Below are positions 11,096 through 63,589 of a stretch of 64,000 bases of DNA, piece after piece. Position numbers and translations under genes: made by a program. The number at the start of each line of letters is the position of its first letter. Within the stretch, counting starts at the first letter, position 1. The stretch is from a virus (lineage: Duplodnaviria > Heunggongvirae > Uroviricota > Caudoviricetes), in IMG/VR virus record IMGVR_UViG_3300044557_000151, positions 59,723 through 123,722 of that record, one strand, 5' to 3'. A model generated the notes under the pieces. That model ran no database searches. It had not been told where the DNA came from and saw only the letters and a program-made list of their open reading frames with translations.

Positions 11096-12061
11096 ATGGG
11101 TTTATTTAGAAAACCAGCTGCATCTAAAAAAGGCTTAATGCTTTTGGCATATGGTGATTCTGGTGTGGGTAAGACCACATTAGCATTATCTGCGCCAAAA
11201 GTTGCCGCAATCGACTCTGAAAAGGGTATGTCGTGGTACGAAGGTCGAGAAGCCGGTAAGAATCTTGTCGGCGTATTCAATACCCAAGACTTCTTTAAAC
11301 TTGAAGATGCCATGAATGAAGTTAAGGAAGACCACGAAGATGTCGAATCCTTAGTAATCGACTCTGAAACTAAATTCAAGGAAAACATCGAAGAAGTGTA
11401 CATTGAAATCGAAAAGAAACGTGCACGTAAAAATCACAAAGACCCGGATGACGCTAACATTTCAATCCGTTCATGGGGTCAAATCGGTCAAGTGTCTAAC
11501 CATTTGCAAAATAAGAAATTGGACCTTGCAAGTCAAGGCATCAATGTTATTTCTATTGCGCAACAAGCGGATATTAAAGACGAAAAAGGCAAAGTTCTTG
11601 GTCATAAACCAGCTATGAAGAAGAACGCCGATTATGATTATGATGTTGTTCTCTACTTGTTTGTCAAAGAAGCAGAAGGCAAGACTCGTCATTACGCCAA
11701 AGTAATGAAGGATCGGACCGAAACCTTTGCCATTGGTCAAATCGTTGAAAATCCTACCTTTGATATGTGGCAAAAGGTTACTGATGCGGTTAAAGATTCC
11801 AAGGTAATTGAACATTCTTTTGCCGATGATAACGTTGCCGCAAAAGATCAATACGAAGAACAAACCGAAGAACAAGATATTCCAGTCTTGGAACGGTTCA
11901 CTACATTTGTAGAAAACAATCCAGACAAGATGGATGAAATCCAAAAGATGATCTCTTCTGTCAAGCTGTCGAAGGACGGGTTGGCAAACCCTACTGCGGC
12001 TGACATGAAGAAACTGGAAACTATTCTGGCACAATTTAAGACGACTGAAAAGGTCGCCTAG
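11096..12061 (+). CDS. AAA_24/Sak4-like RecA-fold ATPase
   Basis: N-terminal Walker A LLAYGDSGVGKTTLA and overall layout are typical of phage Sak4/AAA_24 recombination ATPases. Confidence 0.6.
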   Translation: MGLFRKPAASKKGLMLLAYGDSGVGKTTLALSAPKVAAIDSEKGMSWYEGREAGKNLVGVFNTQDFFKLEDAMNEVKEDHEDVESLVIDSETKFKENIEEVYIEIEKKRARKNHKDPDDANISIRSWGQIGQVSNHLQNKKLDLASQGINVISIAQQADIKDEKGKVLGHKPAMKKNADYDYDVVLYLFVKEAEGKTRHYAKVMKDRTETFAIGQIVENPTFDMWQKVTDAVKDSKVIEHSFADDNVAAKDQYEEQTEEQDIPVLERFTTFVENNPDKMDEIQKMISSVKLSKDGLANPTAADMKKLETILAQFKTTEKVA

Positions 12062-15836: not shown

Positions 15837-15910
15837 GTCTCCGTAGCTCAGATGGATAGAGCATAGATCTTCTAAATCTACGGTCATCGGTTCAAATCCG
15901 ATCGGAGACA
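15837..15910 (+). tRNA. tRNA-Arg(TCT)
   Basis: Manual cloverleaf: acceptor GTCTCCG/CGGAGAC, anticodon loop CTTCTAA, T-arm ATCGG-TTCAAAT-CCGAT. 74 nt. Confidence 0.8.
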
Positions 15911-15994
15911 TTGAGCTGAATTAATTATTCACCTGGTTTGACAACCCTCCAATTTAACTCAAACGTGTGCAGGACTGATCAACCTGTTACATAT

Positions 15995-16065
15995 GCGGAT
16001 ATAGTTCAATGGTAGAATTCTAGTTTTCCAAACTAGCGACGCGAGGCCGGTACTCGTTATCCGCT
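15995..16065 (+). tRNA. tRNA-Trp(CCA)-like with atypical T-loop
   Basis: Acceptor GCGGATA/TATCCGC. Anticodon stem CTAGT/ACTAG with loop TTCCAAA. The T-loop GCCGGTA lacks the conserved TTC. May be a pseudo-tRNA. Confidence 0.4.
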
Positions 16066-16096
16066 TTATATATTTATAAGAAGAGGAGGTTAAAGT

Positions 16097-16780
16097 ATGG
16101 AGATTTGGAAGCCGATGGTTGGATATGAGGGCCTTTACGAAGTGTCTAATGACGGACATGCGCGTTCTGTATCAAGAGAAATTGTGGATAGCGTTGGACG
16201 CAGACGCACCCTAAAAGGCAAGGCAGTCTCGTTCACTATAAATCCCAGAGGATATCTTACCTTTCACGCCACGAAAAACGGTAATAGAAGAACAGCATTC
16301 ATTCATGTTGAAGTGGCGAAGGCGTTTATAGAAAAACCTATTTCTGACGAGCGTTTAGATGTGAATCACAAGGACCATAATAAATTGAATTGCTCAATTG
16401 AGAATCTTGAGTGGTTGACACACGGAGATAATGTGAGAGATCTCAGCATATACCGGGCAAGGACATCAAACACATTAACGAGATTTACAAGGGTCAATGA
16501 TAAGATTGTCAAGCTACCAGATAAGACTTGCGTAGATTGTGGAAAAACCGTTGAGTTCACATCCACTCGTTGTCCTTCATGTGCGGCAAGCGCGTCAATG
16601 ACTTTCACAAACAACGTCGGAGTTATCCCGAAAAATATGCTAGTTTCCGTCCTTCGTGAGAATAATGGGAACTTTGTTAAGGCTGCTGCTGAGTTCGGAA
16701 TTACAGATAACTCCTTGAGAAAGTGGTGTAAGAAATATAATTTGCCATTTCACTCATCGGACTATAAGAAAGCATCATAA
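16097..16780 (+). CDS. HNH homing endonuclease (NUMOD4 + HNH + C-terminal HTH)
   Basis: GYEGLYEVSNDG (NUMOD4 motif), VNHKDHNKLNCSIENLEW (HNH motif) and a C-terminal helix-turn-helix. RBS AAGAGGAGG. Confidence 0.75.
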   Translation: MEIWKPMVGYEGLYEVSNDGHARSVSREIVDSVGRRRTLKGKAVSFTINPRGYLTFHATKNGNRRTAFIHVEVAKAFIEKPISDERLDVNHKDHNKLNCSIENLEWLTHGDNVRDLSIYRARTSNTLTRFTRVNDKIVKLPDKTCVDCGKTVEFTSTRCPSCAASASMTFTNNVGVIPKNMLVSVLRENNGNFVKAAAEFGITDNSLRKWCKKYNLPFHSSDYKKAS

Positions 16781-16798
16781 TGAATTGCATTCGCTTTT

Positions 16799-16882
16799 GC
16801 CGAAGTGGTGGAACTGGAAGACGCGCAGGATTTAGGCTCCTGTGTTGGGAACAACGTGTGGGTTCGAATCCCACCTTCGGCA
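16799..16882 (+). tRNA. tRNA-Leu(TAG)
   Basis: Class II tRNA with long variable arm. Acceptor GCCGAAG/CTTCGGC, anticodon stem CAGGA/TCCTG with loop TTTAGGC, T-arm GTGGG-TTCGAAT-CCCAC. Confidence 0.75.
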
Positions 16883-17120
16883 TCGCCCCTCACTTCACGG
16901 TGGTGAGAGGCGTGAATCAATACTAGTCATGCGGTGTTGGTTCCTCCTTATATATGATATTCGTGCGACCGTCCTGAACGAAGGATTTAAGTCTTATTGC
17001 TTGAATCGGGTTTGAATCCCGACAGCCGCATTCCAGCAAACGTGTATGGCCGCGTGGCGGCGACGAGCGCTGGAATTTAGGTGTGGCACCCTTAACCACA
17101 CCACTCGTTATACTGAAGTG

Positions 17121-17344
17121 GGCAAGAAGACATGTTCTTTAAAGGACGTGATGAATTGCACGTATCTGCGTCAGCAGGTACAACAGCCTTGGTAGCGAAA
17201 ACCAAACTACCAACCTGAACTCAACGTTAAGGCGCGGAACGCGCCGTGGTCAATAACCGTAACCTCTGCATTGTTAGTTTAATGCTAATGGTGTAAGTCA
17301 GCGGTGTTCCCAGAAGCTCGGTCATTTATGACCGAGTAGTTCAC
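17121..17344 (+). mobile_element. ORF-less miniature IS200/IS605 derivative (left end + right end/omega-RNA scaffold)
   Basis: 17121..17160 is nearly identical to the left end of the full IS at 54477. 17245..17344 is nearly identical to the right end at 56190..56287 and ends in the same GAGTAGTTCAC. No ORF between the ends. Confidence 0.6.
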
Positions 17345-17348
17345 GAGT

Positions 17349-17421
17349 GCAACTGTAGCTCAGCGGTGGAGCGGCTGCTCAGAAGAGTAGAGTGTCGCTG
17401 GTTCGATTCCAGCCAGTTGTA
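17349..17421 (+). other. degenerate tRNA-like element (pseudo-tRNA, Phe-like loop CAGAAGA)
   Basis: Good acceptor stem, D-arm and T-arm (GCTGG-TTCGATT-CCAGC) are present. The anticodon stem cannot pair. Begins 4 nt after the mini-IS right end. Confidence 0.35.
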
Positions 17422-17574
17422 GATCCGTGGACTATGTCTAAAATACCTATGTTCTCCTGGTGTCGGTTTGAGGAGACTAACTTTTGGCGGGATGTTCGCA
17501 CATAAGATTGCGAACTTTGTTTCGGATAGTAAAACCGTTAGTCGTGATTGCGAAGTACAAGCTTTCGCGCATAT

Positions 17575-17648
17575 GCTTTCTTAGCTCAGTTGGTTAGAGC
17601 ACCTGACTGTTAATCAGGGTGTCACAGGTTCGAGTCCTGTAGAAAGCG
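17575..17648 (+). tRNA. tRNA-Asn(GTT)
   Basis: Acceptor GCTTTCT/AGAAAGC. Anticodon stem CCTGA/TCAGG with loop CTGTTAA. T-arm ACAGG-TTCGAGT-CCTGT. Confidence 0.85.
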
Positions 17649-17933
17649 TATCTGGATAAATTAAGTTTACGACCAAAAAGCATCCAGAGAAACGCTAACG
17701 TATTGCAGCTGGACTTTAGAGCGATACGAGAGGGCAATCAGCTGTCGGACGGCAGGAAGTTGTCGTAGGTGGATTTGCAACACTTATAGAAAAAGGCTGG
17801 CATGTTCTTGCGCACGAACAAAGCTGGTTAAGATTAAAGTGTGGCGCAGTAGTCGGATAGGTGATTAGTAGTCTGGTGGTCGCAGATGAAAGATCTTACC
17901 GGACTAGGTAGTTCGACTCTACCATCCACCATT

Positions 17934-18006
17934 GGTTGTGTGGTGTTAATGGCTAACACGCCTGATTGTCTATCAGGAGCTTAGGGTTCAATTCCCTACA
18001 CGACCG
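17934..18006 (+). tRNA. tRNA-Asp(GTC)
   Basis: Acceptor GGTTGTG/CACGACC. Anticodon stem CCTGA/TCAGG with loop TTGTCTA. T-arm TAGGG-TTCAATT-CCCTA. Confidence 0.8.
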
Positions 18007-18476
18007 TCAAGCCGAAAGGTTTGAGTTCTTTGCTGTTAATATAACTACCTATCGGATTGGCTAATGACCGCCGATATTTCGGGGATGTAACGGTCTCGAC
18101 AGGATATGCTTAACTGACAAAGCATGTAGAGTGATGACTTAATCATCAACTTGCTAAATGCAAAACAAAACGATTTAGTTGCGGCCTAAGTTTAACTTAG
18201 TATAGCAACACTTACCCCAACGTATGATACCAGATACAAGACGTTGGCTAAACAGGCTGGTGTAGGATGACACTTACTTATTTTCATAAGCTTATCCGAA
18301 ATCTATTGAAAATATGCTCGTCTACTCCGATTGCCCATTTGCGGAAGACGCTAAGACTAATAAGTGAGCTAAGCATGTAGAATTGTCAGATAGAAGCATG
18401 TGTTGGAAACGGGTTCAACTCCCGTCATCTCCATATAGTATGTCGTTACACAATAACATACTAGATATAGTGCAAC

Positions 18477-18564
18477 GGAAAGTTACTCAAGTGGCTGAAG
18501 AGGCGCCCCTGCTAAGGGTGTAGGTCGAGAAATCGGCGCATGGGTTCAAACCCCATACTTTCCA
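18477..18564 (+). tRNA. tRNA-Ser(GCT)
   Basis: Class II tRNA. Acceptor GGAAAGT/ACTTTCC, anticodon loop CTGCTAA, long variable arm, T-arm ATGGG-TTCAAAC-CCCAT. Confidence 0.8.
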
Positions 18565-41041: not shown

Positions 41042-41620
41042 ATGAGCTTTTATATTATTGAAGACGAAGACGGCAACACCATGGATTATAACGGATATTT
41101 TAATTTCCCAATTAGCCAAACGGAGTTGTTCGATGAACCAAATGAGCCAGCTAAATTTGCAGAGGAATTAGGCGGCCACGTAGTCGAGCTAGTCGAGGAG
41201 CAAAAAGTCAAGTTACCGCAAGATGTATGCGAAGAGCTCGACGACTGGATGGCTGATAACCAAGATAGGTTGGTTGGCCGCATTGGTGAATTGATCTTCG
41301 ACATGATGACCCACGAACCTAAATTAACTAATGTATTTTGTTTTGTTGGTGATAGTGAAGAAAACTATTTCAAGATTATTGATGCTTACCGGTATGGTTG
41401 GGAAGCAGAACCGGAAGCTAAGTGGTATGTAAAAACGCCGGAAGCTTGGGAAAGCGAAGACGGTGATTTTGGCTGGCTATATAAGTCGATCTACGGAGGG
41501 ATAGACACCACTAGCCACTTCGATGGTGAAGAAAACGAGCAGTTCACCCGTGCTGAGATCAAGCAGTATCACCTAGATAGCGACATCTTTACACTGGTGC
41601 CAGTGGAGGAAGAAAAATGA
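41042..41620 (+). CDS. acidic hypothetical protein
   Basis: ORF track 192 aa. RBS AGAGGAGG upstream. Confidence 0.45.
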   Translation: MSFYIIEDEDGNTMDYNGYFNFPISQTELFDEPNEPAKFAEELGGHVVELVEEQKVKLPQDVCEELDDWMADNQDRLVGRIGELIFDMMTHEPKLTNVFCFVGDSEENYFKIIDAYRYGWEAEPEAKWYVKTPEAWESEDGDFGWLYKSIYGGIDTTSHFDGEENEQFTRAEIKQYHLDSDIFTLVPVEEEK

Positions 41621-41768
41621 ATGATGCCAAACGATTTCAAGTTTGCGACGAAGAAGAAGTAATGGCTGACTTCGCCACCAAGGAAGGAGCCTTTGTATAT
41701 ATCGAGTCTTATGACCGTTTTAATACCATGTACGTTTACGACACCGAAAAGGATGAGGTGATTTTTAA

Positions 41769-42329
41769 ATGAGCTTATGGGCAGTTAAAGATGCAGACGG
41801 CTGGTTCTGGGACTTCACCGATGAGGGTTTTTACGAAGAAAATGATACTCGAACGGCTGGCATTCCGAACCGAGATTATGCTAACCAAATCGCAAAGGAA
41901 CACAATGGGACACTTACTGAGTATGTGCAGAAGTCCGCACCGATCGTGGTGAGCCAAGAGGAAGCGGAGATGCTGGAGCGGGCGAAGAGTGGACATTTAT
42001 GGGCCACCAATGTGATACAAAATTACATCGATATGCACATGGATGGCATGTCAAATGATGAAAAACAACAATTTGAAGACCGCCTCATGCGCGCCTACGT
42101 CATCGGCTACACCGTGGCAAAGGAGACGCTGTACAACGTCAAGGTGCCACATTCAACTGATGGCTATTACTGGCGTGGAATTAGTGGACAGGTACACACA
42201 TACACTGAGCCTGACCAGCATGCTCATGTTTTGAAAACCGAAGCGTATGTTTGGGCACAAGAACAAATTAATGATGCTGGCTTGCAGGGCTGCGAGAAAG
42301 TGGAGGTGACTGACGATGAAAATGATTAA
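41769..42329 (+). CDS. hypothetical protein (paralog A of a two-member family)
   Basis: Shares VSQEEAEMLERAKSG and EDRLMRAYVIGYTVAKE with the 42694 protein. Confidence 0.5.
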   Translation: MSLWAVKDADGWFWDFTDEGFYEENDTRTAGIPNRDYANQIAKEHNGTLTEYVQKSAPIVVSQEEAEMLERAKSGHLWATNVIQNYIDMHMDGMSNDEKQQFEDRLMRAYVIGYTVAKETLYNVKVPHSTDGYYWRGISGQVHTYTEPDQHAHVLKTEAYVWAQEQINDAGLQGCEKVEVTDDEND

Positions 42330-42534
42330 GCTAGAAAACGGTAATTTGATAAATCTATCGGCAGTGTCATATATCTCAAAAACTGAAATGGTGGCTTATT
42401 TCAAAAAGCCGGTTATCAAAAGTGAAGGTGACTTTCAAACATATAAATGCTATGGCGTTGGTGTAACAGAAGCCGACATTGAACGAATCGCAGCGAGTAC
42501 GGTGAACAAAGAGGTAAAACGAGATGAAAATTGA
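42316..42534 (+). CDS. hypothetical protein
   Basis: ORF track 72 aa. Confidence 0.35.
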   Translation: MKMIKLENGNLINLSAVSYISKTEMVAYFKKPVIKSEGDFQTYKCYGVGVTEADIERIAASTVNKEVKRDEN

Positions 42535-42693
42535 TCTCATTGAACAATGGATTCATAGCCAGGCAAAATCTGTATATGACATCAAAAGTCGTCAAGCGTG
42601 GGTCAAGGCTATGCGGATCGCCGGACTTGATGAACAGACTATCATGCGTGTGTATGAAATTCGGTTCGAGAAGCAGTTTGTGGAGGTAAAACA

Positions 42694-43230
42694 ATGAGCT
42701 TATACATTATTGAAGATAGATATGGAGCATTACTAGATTCATCTGTAAATTACAATTATGCCAAGTCATTACAACATAGAAATTACCCCGACGGACACGT
42801 GGTTGAGATGGTGCCAGCAAAGCCTAAGGTTAAAGTCAGTCAGGAAGAAGCGGAGATGCTGGAAAAAGCTAAGCACAATCCTACGTTACGGCCGTCATTT
42901 TTGATTACGGAATATTCAAATAGCCACAAAGGCTACATATTAGGCAACGACCTTGAAGATCGACTCATGTGTGCCTACGTAATTGGCTGGACCGTGGGGG
43001 AGAAGCCTAAGCGCTACGTCCTACCGATGCCTGGCACTGAATATCGCAGCAAGCTGATGCACGGAAACGCTCAATATTACGCAATCAAAGGAACTGGAAA
43101 CTGGCGGCCTGACGCAATTGCTTTAGGCACTGACGATGCCGTCAAACACGGATACACCGTCACCAAGTCAGAAATCGACACCGCGCCTGATTGGGTTAAG
43201 GGTATTACGCCAATCGAGGTGACGGAATGA
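42694..43230 (+). CDS. hypothetical protein (paralog B)
   Basis: VSQEEAEMLEKAKHN and EDRLMCAYVIGWTVGEKP. Confidence 0.5.
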   Translation: MSLYIIEDRYGALLDSSVNYNYAKSLQHRNYPDGHVVEMVPAKPKVKVSQEEAEMLEKAKHNPTLRPSFLITEYSNSHKGYILGNDLEDRLMCAYVIGWTVGEKPKRYVLPMPGTEYRSKLMHGNAQYYAIKGTGNWRPDAIALGTDDAVKHGYTVTKSEIDTAPDWVKGITPIEVTE

Positions 43231-48818: not shown

Positions 48819-48947
48819 AAGGGAGATTTTATGAAGGATCAGATTTTTGACGCAACAAGCATTAAGGTCAATCCACTAGACGGATACGTAGTAACTGTTA
48901 AGGGAGAGCCACTACACATTTTAGGAGACGTGAAAATTATGAAACAA

Positions 48948-49415
48948 AACACGGTATATATGGCGGAATCTTGGTTTAATGATGAACAAAACGCATTACG
49001 TGAGGCCGGTATGGAGGCGATGAAGCAAAACCAAACAATTGACTGGGAAAACAGCTTCCGCCCAATTGAACATCAATACAAGGGTTGGAAGATTACAGAT
49101 CATCCCGACATGCTCAATAATTCCGAATGGCAGTTAGCGACATTTCGTTCAGACTGTCATTCTGTTGAGGCAATGGACATCACGATTGCGTTGTACGATC
49201 CGAAGATTGAGAACTCAGATCCTGGCGTTTTGTGGGAACTCGGCTATGCTTATGGCTTAAACAAACCAACATTTTTGGTGTTGCCAGATGATTGTGATAC
49301 TCCATTAAACCTAATGCCCGCGTTAGGTGCAACTCGCGTATTACATCTTGCAGACTTGGAGACTTTTGATTTTAACAACAAAGCATTTACAGTATTTACC
49401 GGGGAGGTCTACTAA
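48948..49415 (+). CDS. nucleoside 2-deoxyribosyltransferase
   Basis: YMAESWF...ENSFRPIEHQYKGWKITDHP...WELGYAYGLNKPTFLVLPDD...NLMPALG...FDFNNKAFTVFTGEVY aligns end to end with Lactobacillus NDT. ATG 48948 after GGAGACG. The alternative start at 48831 adds 39 aa. Confidence 0.8.
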   Translation, partial: NTVYMAESWFNDEQNALREAGMEAMKQNQTIDWENSFRPIEHQYKGWKITDHPDMLNNSEWQLATFRSDCHSVEAMDITIALYDPKIENSDPGVLWELGYAYGLNKPTFLVLPDDCDTPLNLMPALGATRVLHLADLETFDFNNKAFTVFTGEVY

Positions 49416-49417
49416 TT

Positions 49418-49900
49418 ATGCAACAACGAAATGTAATGTTATCAGCATCATGGTTCTCACCAGAGGAAGCCGAATTCCTCGAAAAGGTGAAAGCCTCACT
49501 TCATGCCAACGAAACGATTTCAGATTTCAGTTGGTGTTTGGATAAAGATGGACAGTGGGGAGAGACGGATGTTACTCTGCATCCTGAAGTCGCGAGTGAT
49601 TTGTTGTGGCGCTCTCGTACCTTCCTCAATGATGTAACATCTGTAAAAAACGCAGAAGTAATTGTGCTTATGATGGTTCCTGGTCACGAAGATACCGGAG
49701 CAGTTTCCGAGGCAAGTATGGCTTACGCTTGGGGTAAACCCGTAGTCATGGTCCTGCCAGACGCTGATTATGATAACAAGACCACCCCAATTAACTTAAT
49801 GCCATCCATGTTGGCTGACGTCGTAATCCCATATCGTGAACTCGCCACATATAACTTCGGTCACTTACGCAATCGTCCTTACGACGGTCCTTGCTTCTAG
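49418..49900 (+). CDS. nucleoside 2-deoxyribosyltransferase paralog
   Basis: SASWFSPEE...VSEASMAYAWGKPVVMVLPDADYDNKTTPINLMPSM preserves the NDT catalytic Glu region and the PINLM motif. Confidence 0.7.
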   Translation: MQQRNVMLSASWFSPEEAEFLEKVKASLHANETISDFSWCLDKDGQWGETDVTLHPEVASDLLWRSRTFLNDVTSVKNAEVIVLMMVPGHEDTGAVSEASMAYAWGKPVVMVLPDADYDNKTTPINLMPSMLADVVIPYRELATYNFGHLRNRPYDGPCF

Positions 49901-57139: not shown

Positions 57140-59419
57140 TTGGGACATTCAAACTCAATCAGCGTAACTGCAAAGCTTAAAACGTTACGCTATTCGTCTC
57201 CTGATCCGGAAAATCATTTCTTCATTGGAATATTTGAGGTCATTGACGCAAAAGGGTATGACCTTTCGTATTCCGAGCCATTCGATAAGCTGATTACCGT
57301 TAAGGGAAATGGAGAACCGATCACAGGGGTTACATATAAAGTCTCTGGGACCCTTGAACACAATAATCGATTCGGAGATCAATATCAGGTCTATCAACTG
57401 CCGATTGCGTTTGATTTAACTACTGCAACAAAAGAGCAGGTTCGGACATTCCTGGGATCATTTATCTCGAAAAGTCTTACAAACGCGATTGTAGATGGTC
57501 TACCTAATCCGGGCGAAGTACTTGTATCTGGAACAGTTGAAGAACTGTCACAGATAAAAGGTATCGGGGCGACAAAGGGCGAGAGTATCCTAAACAAAGT
57601 TCGATCACAACTCGATTACAGTGCCGCAATCGTAGCTTTGAAAGACTTTGGCTTTAACTTCTCTCCAAAAGTTGTTCAGAAAGTGGTTCAGGCGTTCAAA
57701 TCACCTGAAGGTGTAGCGTCCGCGCTTAACACCAATCCATATCTCATGACTCGTGTACCTGGTATTGGATTCCTAACTGTCGATAAAGTTGCTATCAAAC
57801 ATGGTATTCAACCAAATGATTCCAACCGGGTTCGCAGTTACATTCAATATTATCTACAAGAAGAACGTGAGAATGGCAATTCTTATGTTGAGGCAAAGGA
57901 CTTTGTCGTGAACCTTAACGATAAGATTTACGGAGTTGATATTCCGGGGGCGATTGAATACATTAATAAGTCGCCATTGTATTCGGTATACCAGGTTGAA
58001 GACGAAATGCGTATTTCATTGTCGTCTGTGAACCAGCGAGAACAGGCCGTAGCCAAAGAATTGAAACGGCTCGTATCATTCAACGGGAAGATGGGTTTCA
58101 AATCGGATCTCGTTGAAAGGGCTGTTGCTCATACTGAAGACAAGCAGGGATTTAAGTATTCAAAAATCCAACGAGCCGCAATTGACGAAATGGTAGACAA
58201 TAACGTCTATCTGTTACAAGGATTATCCGGGAGTGGCAAATCGTCATCGATTGCAGGGTTTGTCAATGCCTTGCGAGAACACCACTTTTCATTCACTCAG
58301 GTAGCTTTATCGGGGAAGGCTGCGAACAACCTCGAACAGATTACCGGTGAAGAAGGATCGACAATTCATCGTCGATTGAAGATTATGCCCGATCAAAAAG
58401 GGAAATACTTCTATGGTCCAGATCAACGCTTAGAAGAAGACGTCATCATTTTAGATGAGTTATCCATGGTCGATCTCGATATTTTCTACGCGTTAATCTC
58501 CGCCATTAAAGACGGTGGCAAGCTGATTATGATCGGTGATATTGCTCAGTTAGAGAGTATTGGGATTAGCGTTATGCGCGACTTTCTCACGTCCAATGTC
58601 GTTCCAACTCGCACACTTGATGAGATTCATCGTCAGGCGCAAAAGTCGGCAATTATCACACATTCAATTCAGATTCGTGGTGGCATCGTACCGGATGGCT
58701 TGGCAAAGTCGCCAGGTACAGTTCGTACCTACGGTGAACTGCAAGATTTAACCTACTCATTCGTTCGTAAGGATGGGGAGCAGGACAGCATCTTACATGA
58801 GTCAATTCGTATCTATAAGGAGTTGCTCAAAGAGCATAAGGTTGACGACATTCAAATCCTTATTCCAACGAAGAAGGGGCTTTGCTCAACCTTCACTCTG
58901 AATAAGGCGGGACAAGCGTTAGTAACACCACACCCAGACGACAAATCGAAACTTACTATCAATCAAGGTAAGGAAAACGAATTTGAGCTTCATGTAGGTG
59001 ATCGTGTTATCAACGTCAAGAATAATACAAAAACTCCAATTGATGACAACGGCAATCCAGCTCCTATCTTCAATGGGAACACAGGTGTCGTACTCAACTT
59101 ATCGAAAGGTGCGATCAAGATTTACTTCGATGGGATTGGAATTGTAAATGTCCTGCCAGATCACTTCAAGTATATCGAATTAGGATATGCAATTACGATT
59201 CATAAATCACAAGGTTCAACTATTCCCTATGTGATTGTTGCCTATCCATTCAACTACATGCTTAACAGTCGGGAATCACTTTATACAGCGATCACCCGCG
59301 CATCAAAACATTGCTGGGTCGTATCTTCTCCTTCGACGTTCGTTGAATCCGTTAAGAAGACAGCATCCACACAACACAACACTAGCTTAGACTATTATAT
59401 CAAAAGGGAGTTTCGTTAA
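57140..59419 (+). CDS. RecD-like SF1 DNA helicase
   Basis: N-terminal HhH (LSQIKGIGATKGESIL). Walker A QGLSGSGKSS. Motif V/VI region: ITIHKSQGST...LYTAITRASK. TTG start after AGGAGGG. Confidence 0.75.
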   Translation: MGHSNSISVTAKLKTLRYSSPDPENHFFIGIFEVIDAKGYDLSYSEPFDKLITVKGNGEPITGVTYKVSGTLEHNNRFGDQYQVYQLPIAFDLTTATKEQVRTFLGSFISKSLTNAIVDGLPNPGEVLVSGTVEELSQIKGIGATKGESILNKVRSQLDYSAAIVALKDFGFNFSPKVVQKVVQAFKSPEGVASALNTNPYLMTRVPGIGFLTVDKVAIKHGIQPNDSNRVRSYIQYYLQEERENGNSYVEAKDFVVNLNDKIYGVDIPGAIEYINKSPLYSVYQVEDEMRISLSSVNQREQAVAKELKRLVSFNGKMGFKSDLVERAVAHTEDKQGFKYSKIQRAAIDEMVDNNVYLLQGLSGSGKSSSIAGFVNALREHHFSFTQVALSGKAANNLEQITGEEGSTIHRRLKIMPDQKGKYFYGPDQRLEEDVIILDELSMVDLDIFYALISAIKDGGKLIMIGDIAQLESIGISVMRDFLTSNVVPTRTLDEIHRQAQKSAIITHSIQIRGGIVPDGLAKSPGTVRTYGELQDLTYSFVRKDGEQDSILHESIRIYKELLKEHKVDDIQILIPTKKGLCSTFTLNKAGQALVTPHPDDKSKLTINQGKENEFELHVGDRVINVKNNTKTPIDDNGNPAPIFNGNTGVVLNLSKGAIKIYFDGIGIVNVLPDHFKYIELGYAITIHKSQGSTIPYVIVAYPFNYMLNSRESLYTAITRASKHCWVVSSPSTFVESVKKTASTQHNTSLDYYIKREFR

Positions 59420-60126
59420 TGTCATACCAAACTATTACTAACTTCGAAGTCTTATACAAAGGTCAACGCGCATTCGTGCGTCGCACTTTTTTTGTCGGCG
59501 AAAAGGAATTCGCTGAAATCATCGTCTTCCCACATCGTGCAGAAAACGACTCTATCAATGTACCACGCGAAGAATTGCGCAGTATGCCTACTGAAAGTAG
59601 CTTAGAATTGGCTCAATTTGGTGCAATTGACGGCCTAGCTGACGGTGGCGCTGGTAAGGATGCTCGTGATATTTCAGACCAACCATTAGATTACCAAGAA
59701 TCCTACATGGAAAACTATCACTTTGCGATCAACAAGTACAACGCCGAACACGCTGAAGATGAAAAGAAGGAACAACAAACTGCCAAAGATACTACTGACG
59801 GTACAACCGCTGGTAAAGCAGATGGTGAAAAGGGTTCTGATCCAGCAGATTTAACTGGTAAGAGTGCTGCATACGTAACTGCTTATAACAAGGCTTACAC
59901 GACTGGCAAGGGTGTATATGACAAGGCTCAAGCTGACACCAAAGCCGGTACTGAAGCTGGTACTACAGATGGATCAAATGGTTCTGCTAAAGCTGATTTA
60001 ACTGGTAAATCAGATGCTTACACCACCGCTTACAACACGGCCTACACTACCGGTAAGGCAGCTTATGGTGCAGCTCATCCAGCAGAAGGTAGCGGTTCTG
60101 AAACTGGTACAACTCCAGAACCTTAA
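59419..60126 (+). CDS. hypothetical protein with C-terminal imperfect repeats
   Basis: Repeats of DLTGKSxAYxTAYNxAYTTGK. G/T/A-rich C-terminal tail. Confidence 0.45.
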   Translation: MSYQTITNFEVLYKGQRAFVRRTFFVGEKEFAEIIVFPHRAENDSINVPREELRSMPTESSLELAQFGAIDGLADGGAGKDARDISDQPLDYQESYMENYHFAINKYNAEHAEDEKKEQQTAKDTTDGTTAGKADGEKGSDPADLTGKSAAYVTAYNKAYTTGKGVYDKAQADTKAGTEAGTTDGSNGSAKADLTGKSDAYTTAYNTAYTTGKAAYGAAHPAEGSGSETGTTPEP

Positions 60127-60218
60127 TTTTAATAAAAGTATGGTAATGTAATCGCTTTCATGTTATAATATAGTTAATCCAAAAGGTGTTCTGGAAGATA
60201 TCTTAAAGGATTAATTAT

Positions 60219-60368
60219 ATGGAACACATTCAAACAAGTGATTACATTGCTCAGCTAAACTACCTCAACGACATCGGTCCCGGCGAATGGTGCACCTATC
60301 TATGGGACGAAGCGTTTAGTGAATTAGCTGACTTCTCGCCATTAATGGCATCATTATATATGGACTGA
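60219..60368 (+). CDS. hypothetical small protein
   Basis: 49-aa ORF below the track cutoff. Extended -10 element TGTTATAAT at 60160..60169 upstream. Confidence 0.25.
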   Translation: MEHIQTSDYIAQLNYLNDIGPGEWCTYLWDEAFSELADFSPLMASLYMD

Positions 60369-60375
60369 AAGAACT

Positions 60376-60402
60376 GGCGGTGATCGCACCGCTATTTCTT
60401 TT
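60376..60402 (+). terminator. rho-independent terminator
   Basis: Stem GGCGGTG-ATCG-CACCGCT followed by ATTTCTTTT. Confidence 0.5.
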
Positions 60403-60566
60403 GCCAAAAATAGCTTAAATAGTCTGAATTAGGTAAGGGAGACGCCAAATGAAGAGTCACGGACCACCAGGATAAAACCCGTATTTTATAACTACGATCC
60501 GCTCACAGAAGCGGGGATAAGGGACCCTACAACGTAGGGACGAAACCTACTAAACGAAAAGAGGAA
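60403..60566 (+). promoter_or_regulatory. structured 5' leader of the pnuC-like gene (candidate riboswitch/attenuator)
   Basis: 164-nt leader. SD-led mini-ORF MKSHGPPG (60447..60473). Hairpins CCGCTCACAGAAGCGG and GACCCTACAACGTAGGGAC lie ahead of the pnuC RBS. Confidence 0.3.
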
Positions 60567-61331
60567 ATGAACAACTTGGAAAACACTAACACAACTAAAT
60601 TTACTGGTACTTATTTTCAATGGATCAAGCATCAATTAACCGGATGGGACACTTTCCCATGGGCATTGTGGGGATTCGGTATCGGATTTGAATTAGCCCT
60701 GCTGCTCACCAATAAGATTACACCATTAGCTATCATTTCATTCATCGGCGTATTCTTCGGTATGTGGTGTACAGTCGCAATGTCGTCAGGCGGTACTGAC
60801 GCTAACGGTAATCGAGTAATCTCTCACTCGATTAATGGATTGTTGGGCGCAATCAGTGTAATCGCCTATGTCTATGTTAACTGGACCGCAGGGCACTGGT
60901 TCAGTGTCCTGGATCAATTTGCCTACTTCTTCTTAATCGATTTTGGTTTGATGATTAACTGGCGCACATGGGGACATGGCGAAAACGGCGGCAAGATGAA
61001 TGAACTCTCCAAAAAAGGCTGGGCAATCGTTACTGCTATTATCCTGATTGGTTGGTTTGCCTTCTACCATCTTGGCGTAGTATTAAACGACAGTAATCCA
61101 ATTTGGGATTCCCTCACGTTCGCTATTGGCGCTACGGCAAGCTGGTTGTGCTTCAAGCGTTACACATCGACATACACATTATGGATTTGTTCAAATATTG
61201 TAAATTTGGTTCTTTGGTTTACTGCCCTGCAAGCAGGGTATAGTCAATCAGCACTCGTTATGCTTGTTATGAACGTATTCTATATGGCTACTGCGATCTA
61301 CGGTAAGTTTGTGTGGAAGGTGGAAAAGTAG
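60567..61331 (+). CDS. pnuC: PnuC-family nucleoside/NMN transporter
   Basis: 254 aa, about 7 TM helices, Trp-rich. NWTAGHWFSVLDQF and the loop layout are typical of PnuC. Confidence 0.6.
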   Translation: MNNLENTNTTKFTGTYFQWIKHQLTGWDTFPWALWGFGIGFELALLLTNKITPLAIISFIGVFFGMWCTVAMSSGGTDANGNRVISHSINGLLGAISVIAYVYVNWTAGHWFSVLDQFAYFFLIDFGLMINWRTWGHGENGGKMNELSKKGWAIVTAIILIGWFAFYHLGVVLNDSNPIWDSLTFAIGATASWLCFKRYTSTYTLWICSNIVNLVLWFTALQAGYSQSALVMLVMNVFYMATAIYGKFVWKVEK

Positions 61332-61334
61332 TCC

Positions 61335-62780
61335 TTGCCAGTATCATTAACATTATCTCAAGTGCAACAACGTATCGACGAAAAGTTTAAGGAAAACATT
61401 GAGGTACATGATGACTTCGTAGGGTGGACACACCCTTGTACAATGAGTTGTCGAAAGTGCGGAACAAGCTGGTTTATGAATCCTAGAAATCTGTGTGACA
61501 TGCGACACGGATGTGGGTGCGACTCGTGTAACAAGAAGACCTTTCAACCTCACAATCTGAAAGCTGCCGAACAGGTACGGGACGAGATTCTTGATGCAAC
61601 CGACGGAACAACGCAATTGCAGGTAAACGCCTACACCCGTTCTCAAGAGAAGTGCGACTTTGTTTGCTTAATCTGTGGCAATACCTGGTGCGCCGTTCCG
61701 TCGGTGCTTTTATGGGAGTCTAAAAACAGAAGAACAACTGGTTGCTCAAAGTGTTCACGTAGGTTGCAGGCGCAAAGACAGCAGCGAACAATCGAAGATG
61801 TAAGAGTGTATGTCGCGGATTGTGCACCGGAAATCACCGTTCTTGCGTATGACCCAATTAAGCACCGTGTCGATATGAAGTGCGATAAGTGCGCGTATGA
61901 GTTTACTACAGGATTCGACTCTGATAAAGAAAAGGGGAAGACGCGCTTCCGCTGTCCTAGATGTACTCCTTGCGAATCATCTGGAGAACGGTTCGTTCGA
62001 CGTGTTCTTGACTACAATCAAATCGAGTATCAACAAGAATACTCGTACTTCAACACGATTGAGAAGACCTGGCAGCGATTTGATTTCTTGCTTCCAGTTC
62101 AAAAGCTAGTAATTGAAATCAATGGTGATCAACACACCAACGAATCGAATTCCTTCTACAAGACTCGCATGGTATACCTCGATAAAGTCAAACGTCAATG
62201 GGCGCTAGATCAAGGGTTGCATGTACTGGATATAGATTATCCAACGGAGTCCATGATTTCACAATTAGTTGGTGAGCTCGGTTTACTCGCTGTGCCTCCG
62301 TTCGATTACAAAGACTCGCGAGAGTCTGAATATCAGGACGTTATTGCGTATCTAACGTCGGGGCATAATCTTATCGAAACACAGGCCAAATTCAACATGG
62401 GTCCCAAGGTAGTGAATAGATACATTAAGATGCGCGGATACGCAAATTATTGGGATTTATACCACACTGAACGGATGAAAAGATTGGGACTAACAAATGA
62501 TCTCATCATCGATTGGCTTAAGCATAACCACTTCTCGCATATTGAAGAAGAGATCGGGATTACTAAGAAGTATGTAATTAACCATATACTTAATAATCCA
62601 GACTACCCATACACCAACCTAACCGACATCAAAGATGAAGCAATTCGGTCAGATGAATTTACAAAGTATCGCAAGACTCACTCCAAGCGAGCAACTAGTA
62701 AATACTTTATGACTGATGCAGCCCACATTATTAAATTAATTGGGGCTGAAAAATGGGATAGAAAAGTTGAGGTGTCGTAA
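61335..62780 (+). CDS. multi-zinc-ribbon protein with Vsr/DUF559-like PD-(D/E)XK endonuclease domain (paralog of 44921)
   Basis: Many CxxC pairs. GERFVRRVLDYNQIEY...FDFLLPVQKLVIEINGDQH...LHVLDIDY matches the nuclease domain of the 44921 protein. C-terminal HTH-like tail. Confidence 0.5.
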   Translation: MPVSLTLSQVQQRIDEKFKENIEVHDDFVGWTHPCTMSCRKCGTSWFMNPRNLCDMRHGCGCDSCNKKTFQPHNLKAAEQVRDEILDATDGTTQLQVNAYTRSQEKCDFVCLICGNTWCAVPSVLLWESKNRRTTGCSKCSRRLQAQRQQRTIEDVRVYVADCAPEITVLAYDPIKHRVDMKCDKCAYEFTTGFDSDKEKGKTRFRCPRCTPCESSGERFVRRVLDYNQIEYQQEYSYFNTIEKTWQRFDFLLPVQKLVIEINGDQHTNESNSFYKTRMVYLDKVKRQWALDQGLHVLDIDYPTESMISQLVGELGLLAVPPFDYKDSRESEYQDVIAYLTSGHNLIETQAKFNMGPKVVNRYIKMRGYANYWDLYHTERMKRLGLTNDLIIDWLKHNHFSHIEEEIGITKKYVINHILNNPDYPYTNLTDIKDEAIRSDEFTKYRKTHSKRATSKYFMTDAAHIIKLIGAEKWDRKVEVS

Positions 62781-62857: not shown

Positions 62858-63589
62858 ATCATTCTGTACATTTTAGGATCAATTGGCGCTGGCAAGACAA
62901 GCCTAACCGATTTATTAGCAAAAGACCTACAAACTACCGCATACTATGAAGACATTAGTGGAAATGGCATGATTGGGAGTATGCTTGAAAAATTCTACGA
63001 ATCAGGGATTGACTCAAGAAAGCGCACGGGTGCGATGCTCCAGATCGCCTTCTTAACATTCCGTTACCAGCAATTAAAACGAGCAATTGTTGAACGTAAC
63101 GCTATTCTGGATTCTAGCCTCGAATCCGATTTTGTAATGGCAAAACAGTTGCATGACAACGGCGAAATTGATGATGTGGACTATAACATCTATACTACCT
63201 TATCACAAGAAATGCAGGCTAACGTGAATGGTATGCCATGGAGCGGATATCCAGATCTCGCCATCTACTTAAAGATTGATCCGGAGAAGGAAATCGAGGA
63301 GATTCAAGGACGTGGCCGCGAAATGGAAGATATCCGCAAAGACCCTGAATTGGTTGATTACTATCATCGCGTCAACAAAGCTTATCGCGAATGGTCTAAA
63401 GGTTATACTCGTGGAATTATGCTGACGATTGATCGTGATAAATACGATTTCGTTAATAATCTCGACGATCGCAACACTGTCCTAAATCAAATCGAACATA
63501 AACTTGTTGATCTCGGCAAGTTGTCCCCCGAAGAGTTTGACGCGATTCGTGCTCGCCGTGAACCATTAACTCGCGGTTTGCCGTTCTAA
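62858..63589 (+). CDS. deoxynucleoside kinase (dAK/dGK family), probable ATC/ATT start
   Basis: P-loop ILGSIGAGKTSL at 62870..62905 lies in frame upstream of the first ATG (62969), with no ATG/GTG/TTG after the in-frame stop at 62846. The C-terminus IQGRGREMEDIRKDPELVDYY...DRDKYDFVNNLDDRN aligns with Lactobacillus dAK/dGK. Confidence 0.75.
   Translation: MILYILGSIGAGKTSLTDLLAKDLQTTAYYEDISGNGMIGSMLEKFYESGIDSRKRTGAMLQIAFLTFRYQQLKRAIVERNAILDSSLESDFVMAKQLHDNGEIDDVDYNIYTTLSQEMQANVNGMPWSGYPDLAIYLKIDPEKEIEEIQGRGREMEDIRKDPELVDYYHRVNKAYREWSKGYTRGIMLTIDRDKYDFVNNLDDRNTVLNQIEHKLVDLGKLSPEEFDAIRARREPLTRGLPF

What the first reader, a model, noticed from the sequence alone, without database searches (positions are those of the whole stretch)
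60403..61331. PnuC-type transporter in a virus-like genome, behind a 164-nt structured leader with an SD-led MKSHGPPG mini-ORF
Membrane importers are rare in phages, and PnuC family members carry NMN, nicotinamide riboside and related nucleosides. Bacterial pnuC genes are often riboswitch-controlled (NAD+-II/pnuC motif). This leader has a terminator (60376), then a mini-ORF with its own SD ending in the ribosome-stalling tripeptide PPG, then two hairpins before the pnuC RBS. That fits a translational attenuator or a riboswitch-like element.
Basis: partly seen in the sequence, partly recalled or inferred. Interest (0 to 1): 0.55.

Follow-up and report, generated by a model that had tools for sequence, protein, structure and literature searches.

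The report
Conserved leader RNA before phage PnuC
The two hairpins just upstream of this phage's PnuC transporter gene belong to a conserved, co-varying RNA motif found before PnuC genes in many Lactobacillaceae phages and absent from Rfam, so it is a good candidate for a new riboswitch-like regulator, whereas the little MKSHGPPG reading frame is probably incidental.

Summary
Window 60567-61331 encodes a PnuC-family transporter, preceded by a terminator, an SD-led 8-codon ORF and two hairpins.

The two hairpins (60499-60560) are one copy of a conserved RNA motif. Its layout is: variable hairpin P1, then GGAYA, then a 3-bp helix AGN:N'CU enclosing variable hairpin P2, then an unpaired A, then a CUAAUA/A-rich tail, then the SD 5-15 nt later.

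I found about 35 distinct copies, each on the sense strand directly upstream of a PnuC gene. They precede three PnuC subfamilies only about 20% identical to each other. Carriers include Lactobacillus phages Lb338-1, Lbab1, Iacchus, LfeInf and ENFP1, Leuconostoc phage phiLM33_01, and one bacterial chromosome.

N:N' co-varies (G:C 17, C:G 15, A:U 1, broken 1), and both hairpins show compensatory changes. A covariance model built without the window finds the window copy, and it found 7 further copies in loci fetched later.

No Rfam 15 family matches, and the layout differs from the NAD+-II (pnuC) riboswitch. The mini-ORF is not conserved.

The genes nearby are deoxynucleoside kinase, thymidine kinase and two nucleoside deoxyribosyltransferases, which points to deoxynucleoside salvage. 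The ligand and the switching mechanism are untested.

The parts
60375..60404 (+). Intrinsic terminator ending the upstream unit (the 49-aa ORF 60219-60368): 8-bp stem, 4-nt loop, then TTTCTTTT
   Evidence: terminator scan; sequence. Some related loci (L014, L015) also have a terminator followed by a promoter before the motif.
60435..60475 (+). SD AAGGGAG (60435-41) and mini-ORF ATG 60449 to TAA 60475, MKSHGPPG*. Real in the sequence, but not a conserved part of the element.
   Evidence: no counterpart in about 30 other leaders; only marginal similarity to L133
60487..60492 (+). Possible -10 element TATAAC, 6 nt before P1 (inferred; not called by the sigma-70 scan)
   Evidence: TGNTATAAT or TATAAT sits 25-36 nt before GGAYAAG in L008, L014, L015 and L083, and TATAAC in L075. 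Lb338-1 has TGTGCTATAAT further upstream. One search found no consensus promoter in the window.
60499..60514 (+). P1: hairpin CCGCU / CACAGA / AGCGG, abutting the conserved GGAUA. Its sequence varies between loci but its structure is kept.
   Evidence: MFE folds; 21 of 27 loci have a compact hairpin of at least 4 bp here against 35% at random positions, P 7.6e-6; all four P1 pairs show changes on both sides
60515..60522 (+). Conserved GGAUAAGG (consensus RGAYAAGN). GGAUA is the joining strand. A60520-G60521-G60522 form the 5' strand of the closing helix.
   Evidence: A3, A5, A6 and G7 invariant in 34 distinct copies
60523..60545 (+). P2 domain: internal loop GA, hairpin CCCUAC / AAC / GUAGGG (60525-60539), 3' internal loop ACGAA, and the conserved unpaired A60545
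   Evidence: P2 stems beat shuffles: 0 of 500 shuffles reached the window's 6-bp stem; all four modelled P2 pairs co-vary; this A in 33 of 34 copies
60546..60560 (+). CCU (60546-48), the 3' strand of the closing helix pairing with AGG 60520-22, followed by the conserved A-rich tail ACUAAACGAAAA (consensus CUA-H-U-A, then A-rich)
   Evidence: N:N' GC 13, CG 10, AU 1, broken 1; 0 of 500 shuffles; RNAalifold predicts the same helix; C, U and A invariant
60561..61331 (+). SD GAGG (60561-64), ATG 60567, and the pnuC-family transporter gene (254 aa)
62969..63589 (+). Deoxynucleoside kinase gene (context: nucleoside salvage module)
   Evidence: PF01712, E 4.7e-21
48831..49900 (+). Two adjacent nucleoside 2-deoxyribosyltransferase genes (48831-49415 and 49418-49900). 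Context for the likely substrate.
   Evidence: PF05014, E 8e-18 and 1.7e-12; one search also reports a thymidine kinase in the window

Best explanation
Window 60499-60560 is one copy of a conserved structured RNA motif that is not in Rfam. The motif forms the 5' leader of PnuC-family transporter genes in Lactobacillaceae phages and in at least one bacterial chromosome.

Anatomy (shown):
- a hairpin P1 of variable sequence;
- a conserved joining strand (R)GAYA;
- a 3-bp helix AGN:N'CU that closes a second variable hairpin P2;
- one conserved unpaired A on the 3' side of P2;
- a conserved CUA-H-U-A / A-rich tail that runs into the Shine-Dalgarno sequence 5-15 nt later.

Function (inferred): a cis-acting, riboswitch-like sensor that sets translation of the transporter according to a small molecule related to what PnuC imports. 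The mechanism is most likely repression when the pool is full. In that model, ligand binding locks the junction strands and the A-rich tail onto the helices and denies the ribosome its landing site next to the SD.

The most likely cargo, and so the most likely ligand family, is a deoxynucleoside or a related nucleotide. Phage PnuC genes sit among deoxynucleoside kinase, thymidine kinase, nucleoside deoxyribosyltransferase and ribonucleotide reductase genes. Nicotinamide riboside or NMN is the alternative.

The upstream MKSHGPPG mini-ORF is probably not part of the device.
For: Conservation and pairing:
- About 35 distinct copies share invariant A3, A5, A6, G7 (of RGAYAAGN) and C, U, A (of N'CUA), while the P1 and P2 sequences differ freely.
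- On a plain MAFFT alignment, N:N' is GC 13, CG 10, AU 1, broken 1. No shuffle of 500 reached this and the slid controls collapse. RNAalifold predicts the same helix on its own.
- On model-fitted alignments, 95-98% of cells are paired and 9 of 11 pairs change on both sides. The covariation score is about 0.70 against 0.18 for shuffles and at most 0.15 for slid partners.
- G-U pairs occur on the sense strand.

Predictive power:
- Model R2 was built from 8 copies that exclude the window. It finds the window copy (60498-60557, 21.6 bits, E 0.02 over 472 kb on both strands) with no false hit better than E 1.
- R2 later found 7 copies in newly fetched loci, all directly upstream of pnuC.
- R3 gives the window 36.9 bits and finds no second copy in the 64 kb.

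Gene association:
- Every copy is on the sense strand in front of a PnuC gene. One precedes a 77-aa gene followed by pnuC (L144), and one is separated from pnuC by an inserted TnpB (L156).
- The copies precede three PnuC subfamilies only about 20-25% identical to each other.
- L070 and L150 share one leader but carry different PnuC types.
- The motif is missing where pnuC lies inside an operon or has an N-terminal extension (L001, L128, L137, L224).
- It also occurs in a true chromosomal setting between fba and efp (L039).

Not a known family.

Salvage context.
Against: - No ligand, binding or regulation has been tested.
- The SD is not visibly sequestered by any conserved pairing, and its distance from the motif varies from 5 to 15 nt. 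The expression platform is therefore conjecture.
- The window's own folding energy is unremarkable (z -1.3 to -1.75), and the MFE of the window does not form the 3-bp closing helix.
- P1 support is weaker than P2 support. The P value of 7.6e-6 treats copies as independent, and some are related.
- The model-fitted alignments lean towards the structure.
- All loci were collected through PnuC homology or through the motif's own sequence, so occurrence next to other genes has not been excluded.
- One copy (L081) breaks the N:N' pair, and one (L036) has almost no P2.
Confidence: 0.55

Rival explanations
1. The motif is a real, conserved cis-regulatory RNA, but it is read by a protein (a host or phage RNA-binding protein, or a ribonuclease) or acts as a constitutive 5'-UTR element for mRNA stabilisation or ribosome standby. 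It is not a small-molecule sensor.
For: No conserved pairing hides the SD, and the spacing to the SD varies. In several loci the motif begins within a few nucleotides of the likely transcript start, and 5'-terminal hairpins are known to stabilise Firmicute mRNAs (established knowledge). Most copies are in phages, which often use protein translational repressors.
Against: There is only one copy per genome: R3 finds none elsewhere in the window's 64 kb or in the roughly 470 kb of loci. A dedicated protein for a single site is unusual. The motif also sits in a bacterial chromosome without phage genes around it (L039), and in phages of at least five host genera. It stays with PnuC genes even when the PnuC subfamily is swapped, which is the pattern expected of a metabolite sensor tied to the cargo. 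About 13 conserved unpaired nucleotides around variable helices is typical of an aptamer.
Confidence: 0.25
2. It is a distant relative or functional analogue of the NAD+-II (pnuC-motif) riboswitch. It would sense nicotinamide riboside, NMN or NAD+, and the phage PnuC would import NR to rebuild NAD+ (a NARP3-like counter-defence).
For: It occupies the same position, directly upstream of pnuC, in the same bacterial order. It is small, with a helix, an internal loop, a variable hairpin, an A-rich strand and then the RBS. In NAD+-II an A5 strand forms a minor-groove triplex (PMC10085692). NCBIfam places the protein in the NR-transporter equivalog TIGR01528. Phage PnuC plus NadR was shown to import NR and restore NAD+ (PMC13464706).
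Against: No match to the Rfam pnuC model at E<=10 in three leader searches, and nothing at gathering score in 16 loci or in the window. The defining 5' pseudoknot strand (C-N-U-C-C pairing with GGAG of the RBS) and the 2N4 core have no counterpart, and here P1 is a separate hairpin. The NAD+-II pnuC motif was identified exclusively in Streptococcus (PMC7749635). No NadR, NMNAT or NAMPT family appears among the 25 Pfam families listed (of 29 found) for the window's large ORFs. The neighbours are dNK, TK, NDT, NrdD and NrdH instead, and a homologue 62% identical lies in a deoB-deoD-pdp operon.
Confidence: 0.12
3. One reading: translation of the SD-led MKSHGPPG mini-ORF, stalling at Pro-Pro-Gly, remodels the downstream hairpins and controls pnuC translation.
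For: The mini-ORF has a good SD at the ideal spacing and ends in PPG-stop. PPG is a known EF-P-dependent stalling motif (established knowledge). One related phage locus (L133) also has an SD-led mini-ORF at a similar place, with local DNA similarity around the SD and ATG (score 14 against 8.4 +/- 1.4; 7 of 2000 shuffles).
Against: About 30 other leaders that carry the motif have no such ORF. The L133 peptide is different (MKIRGKPFVVVD, no PPG), and the similarity is marginal after testing 31 loci. The ORF ends 23 nt before P1 and overlaps nothing that could pair alternatively with the hairpins. If the TATAAC at 60487-92 is the -10, the ORF is not on the pnuC mRNA at all.
Confidence: 0.05
4. 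The shared sequences are chance or simple shared ancestry of recently diverged phage DNA, with no function.
For: Some copies are near-identical (L002/L006, L069/L070/L072, L014/L015). The single-sequence fold is not significant.
Against: The flanking DNA and the PnuC proteins are highly diverged (20-66% identity), while about 13 motif positions stay nearly invariant and the helices keep pairing through compensatory changes. Two covariance models found instances that were absent from their seed alignments.
Confidence: 0.03

Closest known systems
NAD+-II riboswitch (pnuC motif, Rfam RF03013; Panchapakesan et al. 2021, PMC7749635; structures in PMC10085692 and PMC9841397)
   Same: A cis-acting RNA of about 50-60 nt directly upstream of PnuC-family transporter genes in Lactobacillales. 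It has a helix with an internal loop and a variable hairpin, then an A-rich strand, then the RBS. It presumably works as a translational OFF switch that reports on the transporter's cargo.
   Different: The consensus is different. NAD+-II has P1 enclosing a conserved internal loop whose C-N-U-C-C strand forms a pseudoknot with the RBS GGAG. Here a separate 5' hairpin, GGAYA, AGN:N'CU and a CUAAUA tail are conserved, and no conserved pairing to the SD is visible. The Rfam model gives no hit. The NAD+-II pnuC motif was identified exclusively in Streptococcus, whereas this motif is in Lactobacillaceae phages and at least one Lacticaseibacillus chromosome, next to PnuC clades in deoxynucleoside-salvage contexts.
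preQ1-II riboswitch (RF01054) and other small A-rich-tail pseudoknot aptamers of Lactobacillales (preQ1-I, SAM-II)
   Same: A dispensable-looking 5' hairpin, a short conserved core, and an A-rich 3' strand running into the SD. Translational control of a transporter gene.
   Different: The only signal is one chance-level hit (L003, 12.7 bits against a gathering score of 47, E = 8). The window and L130 give none. No SD-containing helix is conserved, and the gene association is entirely different.
2'-deoxyguanosine riboswitches (purine-riboswitch variants)
   Same: Would be the functional analogue if the ligand is a deoxynucleoside: an RNA sensor for deoxynucleoside salvage or RNR-related genes.
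   Different: Those are three-way-junction purine aptamers. There is no sequence or structural resemblance here and no Rfam hit.
NrdR-regulated PnuC-like 'PnuN' deoxynucleoside transporters (Rodionov & Gelfand 2005, as cited in PMC7749635; RAST label in phage records VPE25 and Nyseid)
   Same: PnuC-family genes tied to deoxynucleotide supply. The same kind of gene neighbourhood (dNK, NDT, nrd).
   Different: That regulation is by a DNA-binding repressor at NrdR boxes. No NrdR-box-like site lies in this leader. The only window match to the remembered consensus is at 18458, at chance level. The covarying N:N' pair and the variable spacing argue for RNA, not a DNA operator.
NARP3 phage counter-defence (PnuC-like NR importer plus NadR-like enzyme; PMC13464706)
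   Same: A phage-encoded PnuC-family importer used as an auxiliary metabolic gene.
   Different: NARP3 is a two-gene PnuC-NadR module of Enterobacteria phages. No NadR-like gene is adjacent here or among the 25 Pfam families listed for the window. No leader RNA was described for NARP3 (no 'riboswitch' in that text).

Membership tests
PnuC / NMN_transporter protein family (PF04973, TIGR01528) | Profile match above the curated cut-off over the whole domain | tested here: met
   PF04973: 86.9 bits against 27.3. TIGR01528: 106.9 bits against 42.45. Aligns to N. mucosa PnuC 4QTN over residues 19-250.
PnuC / NMN_transporter protein family (PF04973, TIGR01528) | Substrate is nicotinamide riboside (the equivalog name) | not testable with these tools
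   Gene context (dNK, TK, NDT, NrdD/NrdH; a deoB-deoD-pdp operon in L137) suggests (deoxy)nucleosides instead. An uptake assay is needed.
NAD+-II riboswitch (pnuC motif, RF03013) | Scores at or above the Rfam gathering threshold, or at least gives a sub-threshold match | tested here: not met
   No RF03013 hit at E<=10 on window 60100-60700, L130 or L003. Nothing at gathering score in 16 loci or the whole window.
NAD+-II riboswitch (pnuC motif, RF03013) | P1 enclosing a conserved internal loop whose pyrimidine strand (C-N-U-C-C) forms a pseudoknot with the RBS | tested here: not met
   Feature list taken from PMC10085692 and PMC7749635. In 34 copies the internal loop is 0-3 nt (RR) on the 5' side and A-rich on the 3' side. 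No CNUCC strand and no conserved complement to the SD.
NAD+-II riboswitch (pnuC motif, RF03013) | Located in the 5' UTR of pnuC, sense strand, next to the RBS | tested here: met
   All copies.
NAD+-II riboswitch (pnuC motif, RF03013) | Binds NMN, NR or NAD+ | not testable with these tools
   Needs in-line probing or ITC.
Riboswitch (generic) | Conserved aptamer-like structure supported by covariation, with conserved unpaired nucleotides | tested here: met
Riboswitch (generic) | Consistent cis position and orientation relative to functionally related genes | tested here: met
   Always upstream of PnuC genes of three subfamilies. Caveat: the loci were gathered through PnuC or through the motif itself.
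Riboswitch (generic) | Recognisable expression platform (SD sequestration or terminator alternative) | tested here: inconclusive
   No terminator lies between the motif and the start codon. The SD is 5-15 nt after the motif and is not in a conserved helix.
Riboswitch (generic) | Direct, selective ligand binding and ligand-dependent gene control | not testable with these tools
   Experimental.
Leader-peptide (uORF) translational attenuator | The upstream ORF is conserved in presence and position across homologous leaders and overlaps alternative pairings | tested here: not met
   Absent from about 30 other leaders. Only L133 has a different mini-ORF. No overlap with the hairpins.
NARP3 (PnuC + NadR phage NAD+ reconstitution) | PnuC gene paired with an adjacent NadR-like RNK/NMNAT gene | tested here: not met
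   The neighbours are a 49-aa ORF, a 481-aa DUF723-like ORF and dNK. No NadR-type family among the 25 Pfam families listed (of 29 found) for the window's 52 large ORFs. Genes beyond position 64000 were not seen.

The most novel reading that the evidence does not exclude
A new riboswitch class, carried mainly by Lactobacillaceae phages, that senses a deoxynucleoside or deoxynucleotide (or another nucleoside-type metabolite). It would throttle a phage-encoded PnuC-family importer so that the virus matches deoxynucleoside scavenging to its DNA-synthesis needs. The same aptamer would serve three divergent PnuC subfamilies.
Probability: 0.4. Interest if true: 0.85.

Novelty: new variant of a known kind. 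Interest (0 to 1): 0.7.

Why it matters
If this RNA binds a metabolite, it would be a new riboswitch class with about 35 or more representatives and a clear gene association. It would also be unusual in being found mainly in virus genomes.

Its ligand would reveal what this large group of phage PnuC transporters actually imports: deoxynucleosides for DNA synthesis, or nicotinamide riboside for NAD+ rebuilding. That question is open, and the database name 'nicotinamide riboside transporter' may answer it wrongly.

The motif also gives a practical marker for correcting gene starts. In LfeInf and in one metagenome gene call, the annotated start lies inside the RNA element.

Finally, it offers a compact natural regulatory part for lactic acid bacteria.

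Tried and rejected
- **Rfam.** E-value mode on the window leader and on two other leaders, and gathering mode on 16 loci and the whole window. No riboswitch family matched. The only nominal hit was preQ1-II on L003 at chance level.
- **DNA similarity of the leader to deposited phages.** Nothing.
- **Single-protein scan of viral contigs.** Found nothing; an alignment was needed.
- **MAFFT alignment of four seed sequences.** It misaligned them, so I dropped it. MAFFT cannot align the variable hairpins. I therefore built model R1 from three near-identical copies and iterated to R2. R3 models only the anchors and the closing helix.
- **First null model for P1.** It was flawed because locus ids had been overwritten by alignment rows. 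One search is the redone version; the significance fell from 1.5e-8 to 7.6e-6.
- **DNA-pattern scans of viral contigs.** Most hits were false. About 40 belong to one conserved coding sequence of marine phages. The scans still yielded the copies upstream of two further PnuC subfamilies.
- **Conserved pairings that would hide the SD.** I looked for pairing of the SD with P1 strands, P1 or P2 loops, or N'CU acting as an anti-SD. None is consistent across copies. The anti-SD idea fails for the AAGC:GCU half of the family.
- **Extended pairing of GGAYA with the CUAAUA tail.** Not supported: the Y = C variants have no compensating change.
- **K-turn reading of the internal loop.** Rejected, because there is no 3-nt bulge plus tandem G-A.
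- **CsrA-type GGA sites.** This would not explain the conserved 3' half or the covariation.
- **NrdR boxes.** None in the leader (the consensus was taken from memory).
- **Mini-ORF conservation.** Only marginal similarity to L133. L226 turned out to be the same phage (100% identical), so it carries no information.
Full report
**1. The observation**

Window 60567-61331 (+) is a 254-aa ORF that matches the PnuC/NMN-transporter family: Pfam PF04973 at E 2e-24 and NCBIfam TIGR01528 at 106.9 bits. It aligns with N. mucosa PnuC 4QTN.

Upstream lie the following features:
- an intrinsic terminator at 60375-60394 plus a T-run;
- an SD (AAGGGAG, 60435-41) followed by a mini-ORF at 60449-60475 encoding MKSHGPPG*;
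- two hairpins, 60499-60514 and 60525-60539, which the MFE fold recovers;
- the RBS GAGG at 60561-64.

The surrounding genome is clearly a large phage. It has a RecD2-type helicase, pol III alpha, tRNAs and phage Pfam families, and all genes are on one strand.

So the description is accurate. Two qualifications apply. The single-sequence folding energy is not unusual (z -1.3 and -1.75). PnuC genes are well known in Firmicute phages: 125 deposited records, mostly from Lactobacillus, Enterococcus and Bacillus phages.

**2. What the leader is**

I collected PnuC homologues and read their upstream regions. A shared element appeared immediately. Its order is:
- a compact hairpin of variable sequence (P1);
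- the string (R)GAYAAGN;
- a second variable hairpin (P2);
- an A;
- N'CUA followed by H-U-A and an A-rich run;
- the SD, 5-15 nt later.

Across 34 distinct copies, seven positions are invariant: A3, A5, A6 and G7 of the first string, and C, U and A of the second. N and N' are complementary: G:C 17, C:G 15, A:U 1, with one exception.

On a structure-blind MAFFT alignment of 25 copies, the 3-bp helix AGN:N'CU is 98.7% paired. No shuffle of 500 reached its covariation, and partners slid by one to three columns collapse to 4-51% paired. RNAalifold predicts the same helix unaided.

P2 stems beat shuffles of their own sequence in most copies. A compact hairpin of at least 4 bp abuts GGAYA in 21 of 27 copies, against 35% at random positions in the same loci (P 7.6e-6). 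This figure replaces a flawed control.

Close relatives show textbook compensation. In P1, GAGC/GCUC (L069) becomes GAGU/ACUC (L070). In P2, GCGU/GCGC (L014) becomes GCGA/UCGC (L015).

Two flavours exist. Type A, which includes the window, has an internal loop (RR on the 5' side, (U)GAAA on the 3' side) between the closing helix and P2. Type B has only the single unpaired A.

**3. Model-based tests**

R2 is a covariance model built from eight type-A copies and does not include the window. I searched 472,702 bases on both strands with it. It returned 13 hits at E<0.03, all of them motif copies in front of pnuC. The window copy was among them (60498-60557, 21.6 bits). The remaining hits at E>1 were one further motif copy (L036, E 1.5) and three low-scoring matches away from pnuC leaders.

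On the 12 best hits, 95.2% of cells are paired and 9 of 11 pairs change on both sides. The covariation score is 0.70, against 0.19 for shuffles (0 of 500 reached it) and at most 0.15 for slid partners.

On loci fetched later, R2 found seven further copies that were not in its seed. Each lies directly upstream of pnuC. They are 98.4% paired, again with 9 of 11 compensated pairs. These alignments are fitted to the model and lean towards it. The MAFFT result and the held-out detections do not share that bias.

R3 models the anchors plus the closing helix and was built from 25 copies. It scores the window at 36.9 bits and finds no second copy anywhere in the 64 kb.

**4. Where it occurs**

Every copy lies on the sense strand in front of a PnuC gene.

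Published genomes that carry it:
- Lactobacillus phage Lb338-1, after a TGTGCTATAAT promoter;
- Lbab1;
- Iacchus;
- LfeInf;
- Levilactobacillus phage ENFP1;
- Leuconostoc phage phiLM33_01.

It is absent from:
- ATCCB, which has an N-terminal extension on PnuC;
- 3-521, WCP30 and Maenad, which have their own leaders without the motif;
- VPE25, where pnuC follows the preceding gene closely;
- a homologue 62% identical that is the last gene of a deoB-deoD-pdp operon (L137).

One copy lies in a genuine chromosomal setting, between fructose-bisphosphate aldolase and EF-P in Lacticaseibacillus zhaodongensis (L039).

DNA-pattern scans of viral contigs were mostly noise, but they showed something important. 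The same leader also precedes two other PnuC subfamilies that are only about 20-25% identical to the window protein. L070 and L150 share one leader yet carry different PnuC types. In L156 a TnpB element has been inserted between the motif and pnuC. The RNA therefore follows the transporter function rather than one gene lineage.

**5. Comparison with known families**

No Rfam 15 family reaches its threshold in the window or in 16 related loci. E-value-mode searches of three leaders give nothing except a chance-level preQ1-II hit on L003 (12.7 bits against 47).

The obvious candidate is the NAD+-II/pnuC motif, which was identified exclusively in Streptococcus. It is defined by a P1/P1a fold whose internal-loop strand C-N-U-C-C pairs with the RBS, with an A5 strand docked in the minor groove of P1 (PMC7749635, PMC10085692). 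Here there is no such pyrimidine strand and no conserved pairing to the SD, and P1 is a separate hairpin. Membership is therefore rejected. The general design is similar, though: a small aptamer-like fold, an A-rich 3' strand, the RBS next door, and the same gene family.

Full-text searches for pnuC together with riboswitch or motif terms found only the Streptococcus motif. Within the limits of that library and Rfam 15, the element is undescribed.

**6. Likely function**

*Shown:* a conserved, co-varying, strand-specific RNA structure at the 5' end of pnuC messages, present once per genome.

*Inferred:* it is a cis-acting sensor that controls translation. The pattern behind this inference is about 13 near-invariant unpaired nucleotides around freely varying helices, retention across phages of at least five host genera and one chromosome, and loyalty to PnuC genes of three subfamilies. 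That is the signature of a metabolite aptamer rather than of a protein site.

The expression platform is not evident. There is no terminator, and no conserved helix sequesters the SD. The A-rich tail abuts the SD at a variable distance. My working model is that ligand binding captures the junction strand and the A-rich tail, and so occludes the ribosome's landing site. This rests on analogy with NAD+-II, preQ1 and SAM-II pseudoknot aptamers and is not tested.

For the ligand, gene context points to deoxynucleoside salvage:
- The window encodes a deoxynucleoside kinase (62969-63589), a thymidine kinase and two nucleoside 2-deoxyribosyltransferases (48831-49900).
- Lb338-1 has dGK-NDT-x-PnuC.
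- Lbab1 has a kinase (annotated as thymidylate kinase)-NDT-x-PnuC.
- VPE25 has NDT-dGK-PnuC.
- Relatives place NrdD or NrdH next to pnuC.
- L137 places it in a deo operon.

The alternative is NR/NMN, as in the experimentally shown NARP3 PnuC-NadR module of enterobacterial phages (PMC13464706). It is less likely because no NadR-type gene was seen, but it is not excluded.

**7. The mini-ORF**

It is real, but it is not conserved. About 30 other leaders lack anything like it. The related phage locus L133 has a different 12-codon ORF, and the local DNA similarity there is marginal once the number of comparisons is counted. L226 is the same phage, 100% identical over 7,259 nt, and adds nothing.

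In several loci a -10 element lies just upstream of P1. The window has TATAAC (60487-92) at the equivalent place, which would put the transcript start at about 60499 and leave the mini-ORF off the pnuC mRNA. That promoter is weak by consensus and was not called by the scan, so this remains an inference.

**8. Verdict**

The riboswitch-like reading is supported in kind, but the named families are wrong. The PPG attenuator is not supported.

The element is best filed as a new class of PnuC-associated leader RNA, a strong riboswitch candidate with unknown ligand. I put about 0.9 on it being a functional structured cis-regulatory RNA and about 0.5-0.55 on it being a true metabolite-binding riboswitch.

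Noticed in passing
window 18081-18436 (+), within the tRNA cluster 15837-18564: A bona fide tmRNA gene in this phage genome (Rfam RF00023 at 112.9 bits, E 2.6e-43; ARAGORN tag peptide AKQNDLVAA*). It sits among seven tRNA genes (Rfam lists seven; ARAGORN lists six, one of them with an odd anticodon loop). Phage-encoded tmRNAs are uncommon.
   Followed up: partly
window, ORFs between 1 and 56148 (not individually mapped): Pfam overview of 52 large ORFs: three TnpB/IS605-OrfB (Cas12f1-like TNB) proteins, one IS200 Y1 transposase, RtcB plus an RNA ligase, a MazF/PemK toxin, PgpA, an integrase-family protein, three DUF1642 paralogues (41042-43230) and HNH/NUMOD4 endonucleases.
   Followed up: no
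window 61335-62780 (+): A 481-aa ORF with only a weak DUF723 match and several CxxC pairs. It is conserved immediately downstream of pnuC in related phages (473 aa in L133, 485 aa in L169, 339 aa in L144). Function unknown.
   Followed up: no
window 59419-60126 (+): A 235-aa protein with no family match and an internally repeated, Ala/Thr/Gly/Lys-rich C-terminal half (repeats of the type LTGKSxAYxTAYNxAYTTGK).
   Followed up: no
L223 (LfeInf KP054477) 1453; L225 2501: The annotated or called PnuC start codons lie inside hairpin P2 of the RNA motif. The likely true starts are TTG at L223 1487 and TTG at L225 2544, each with a proper SD. The motif can be used to correct these gene starts.
   Followed up: partly
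L156, minus strand, between the motif (11204-11241) and pnuC (starting at about 9733): A 397-aa TnpB/IS605 OrfB gene is inserted between the leader motif and the pnuC gene it would control.
   Followed up: partly
L070/L072 versus L146/L150/L154: Large phage genomes of about 117-138 kb share the same leader sequence up to the start codon but carry PnuC genes of different subfamilies behind it. This implies gene replacement under a retained regulatory leader.
   Followed up: partly
L144 2188-2252: Here the motif precedes a 77-aa gene (Pfam 'Sequestin', PF21825) whose stop overlaps the pnuC start. This is the only copy where a second gene shares the leader.
   Followed up: no
L168, L170-L175 and about 35 more viral loci: The pattern GGATAAGG...GAAACCTAATA also matches a conserved protein-coding stretch of a family of marine phage contigs. 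This is unrelated to the motif and is a caution for pattern-only searches.
   Followed up: yes
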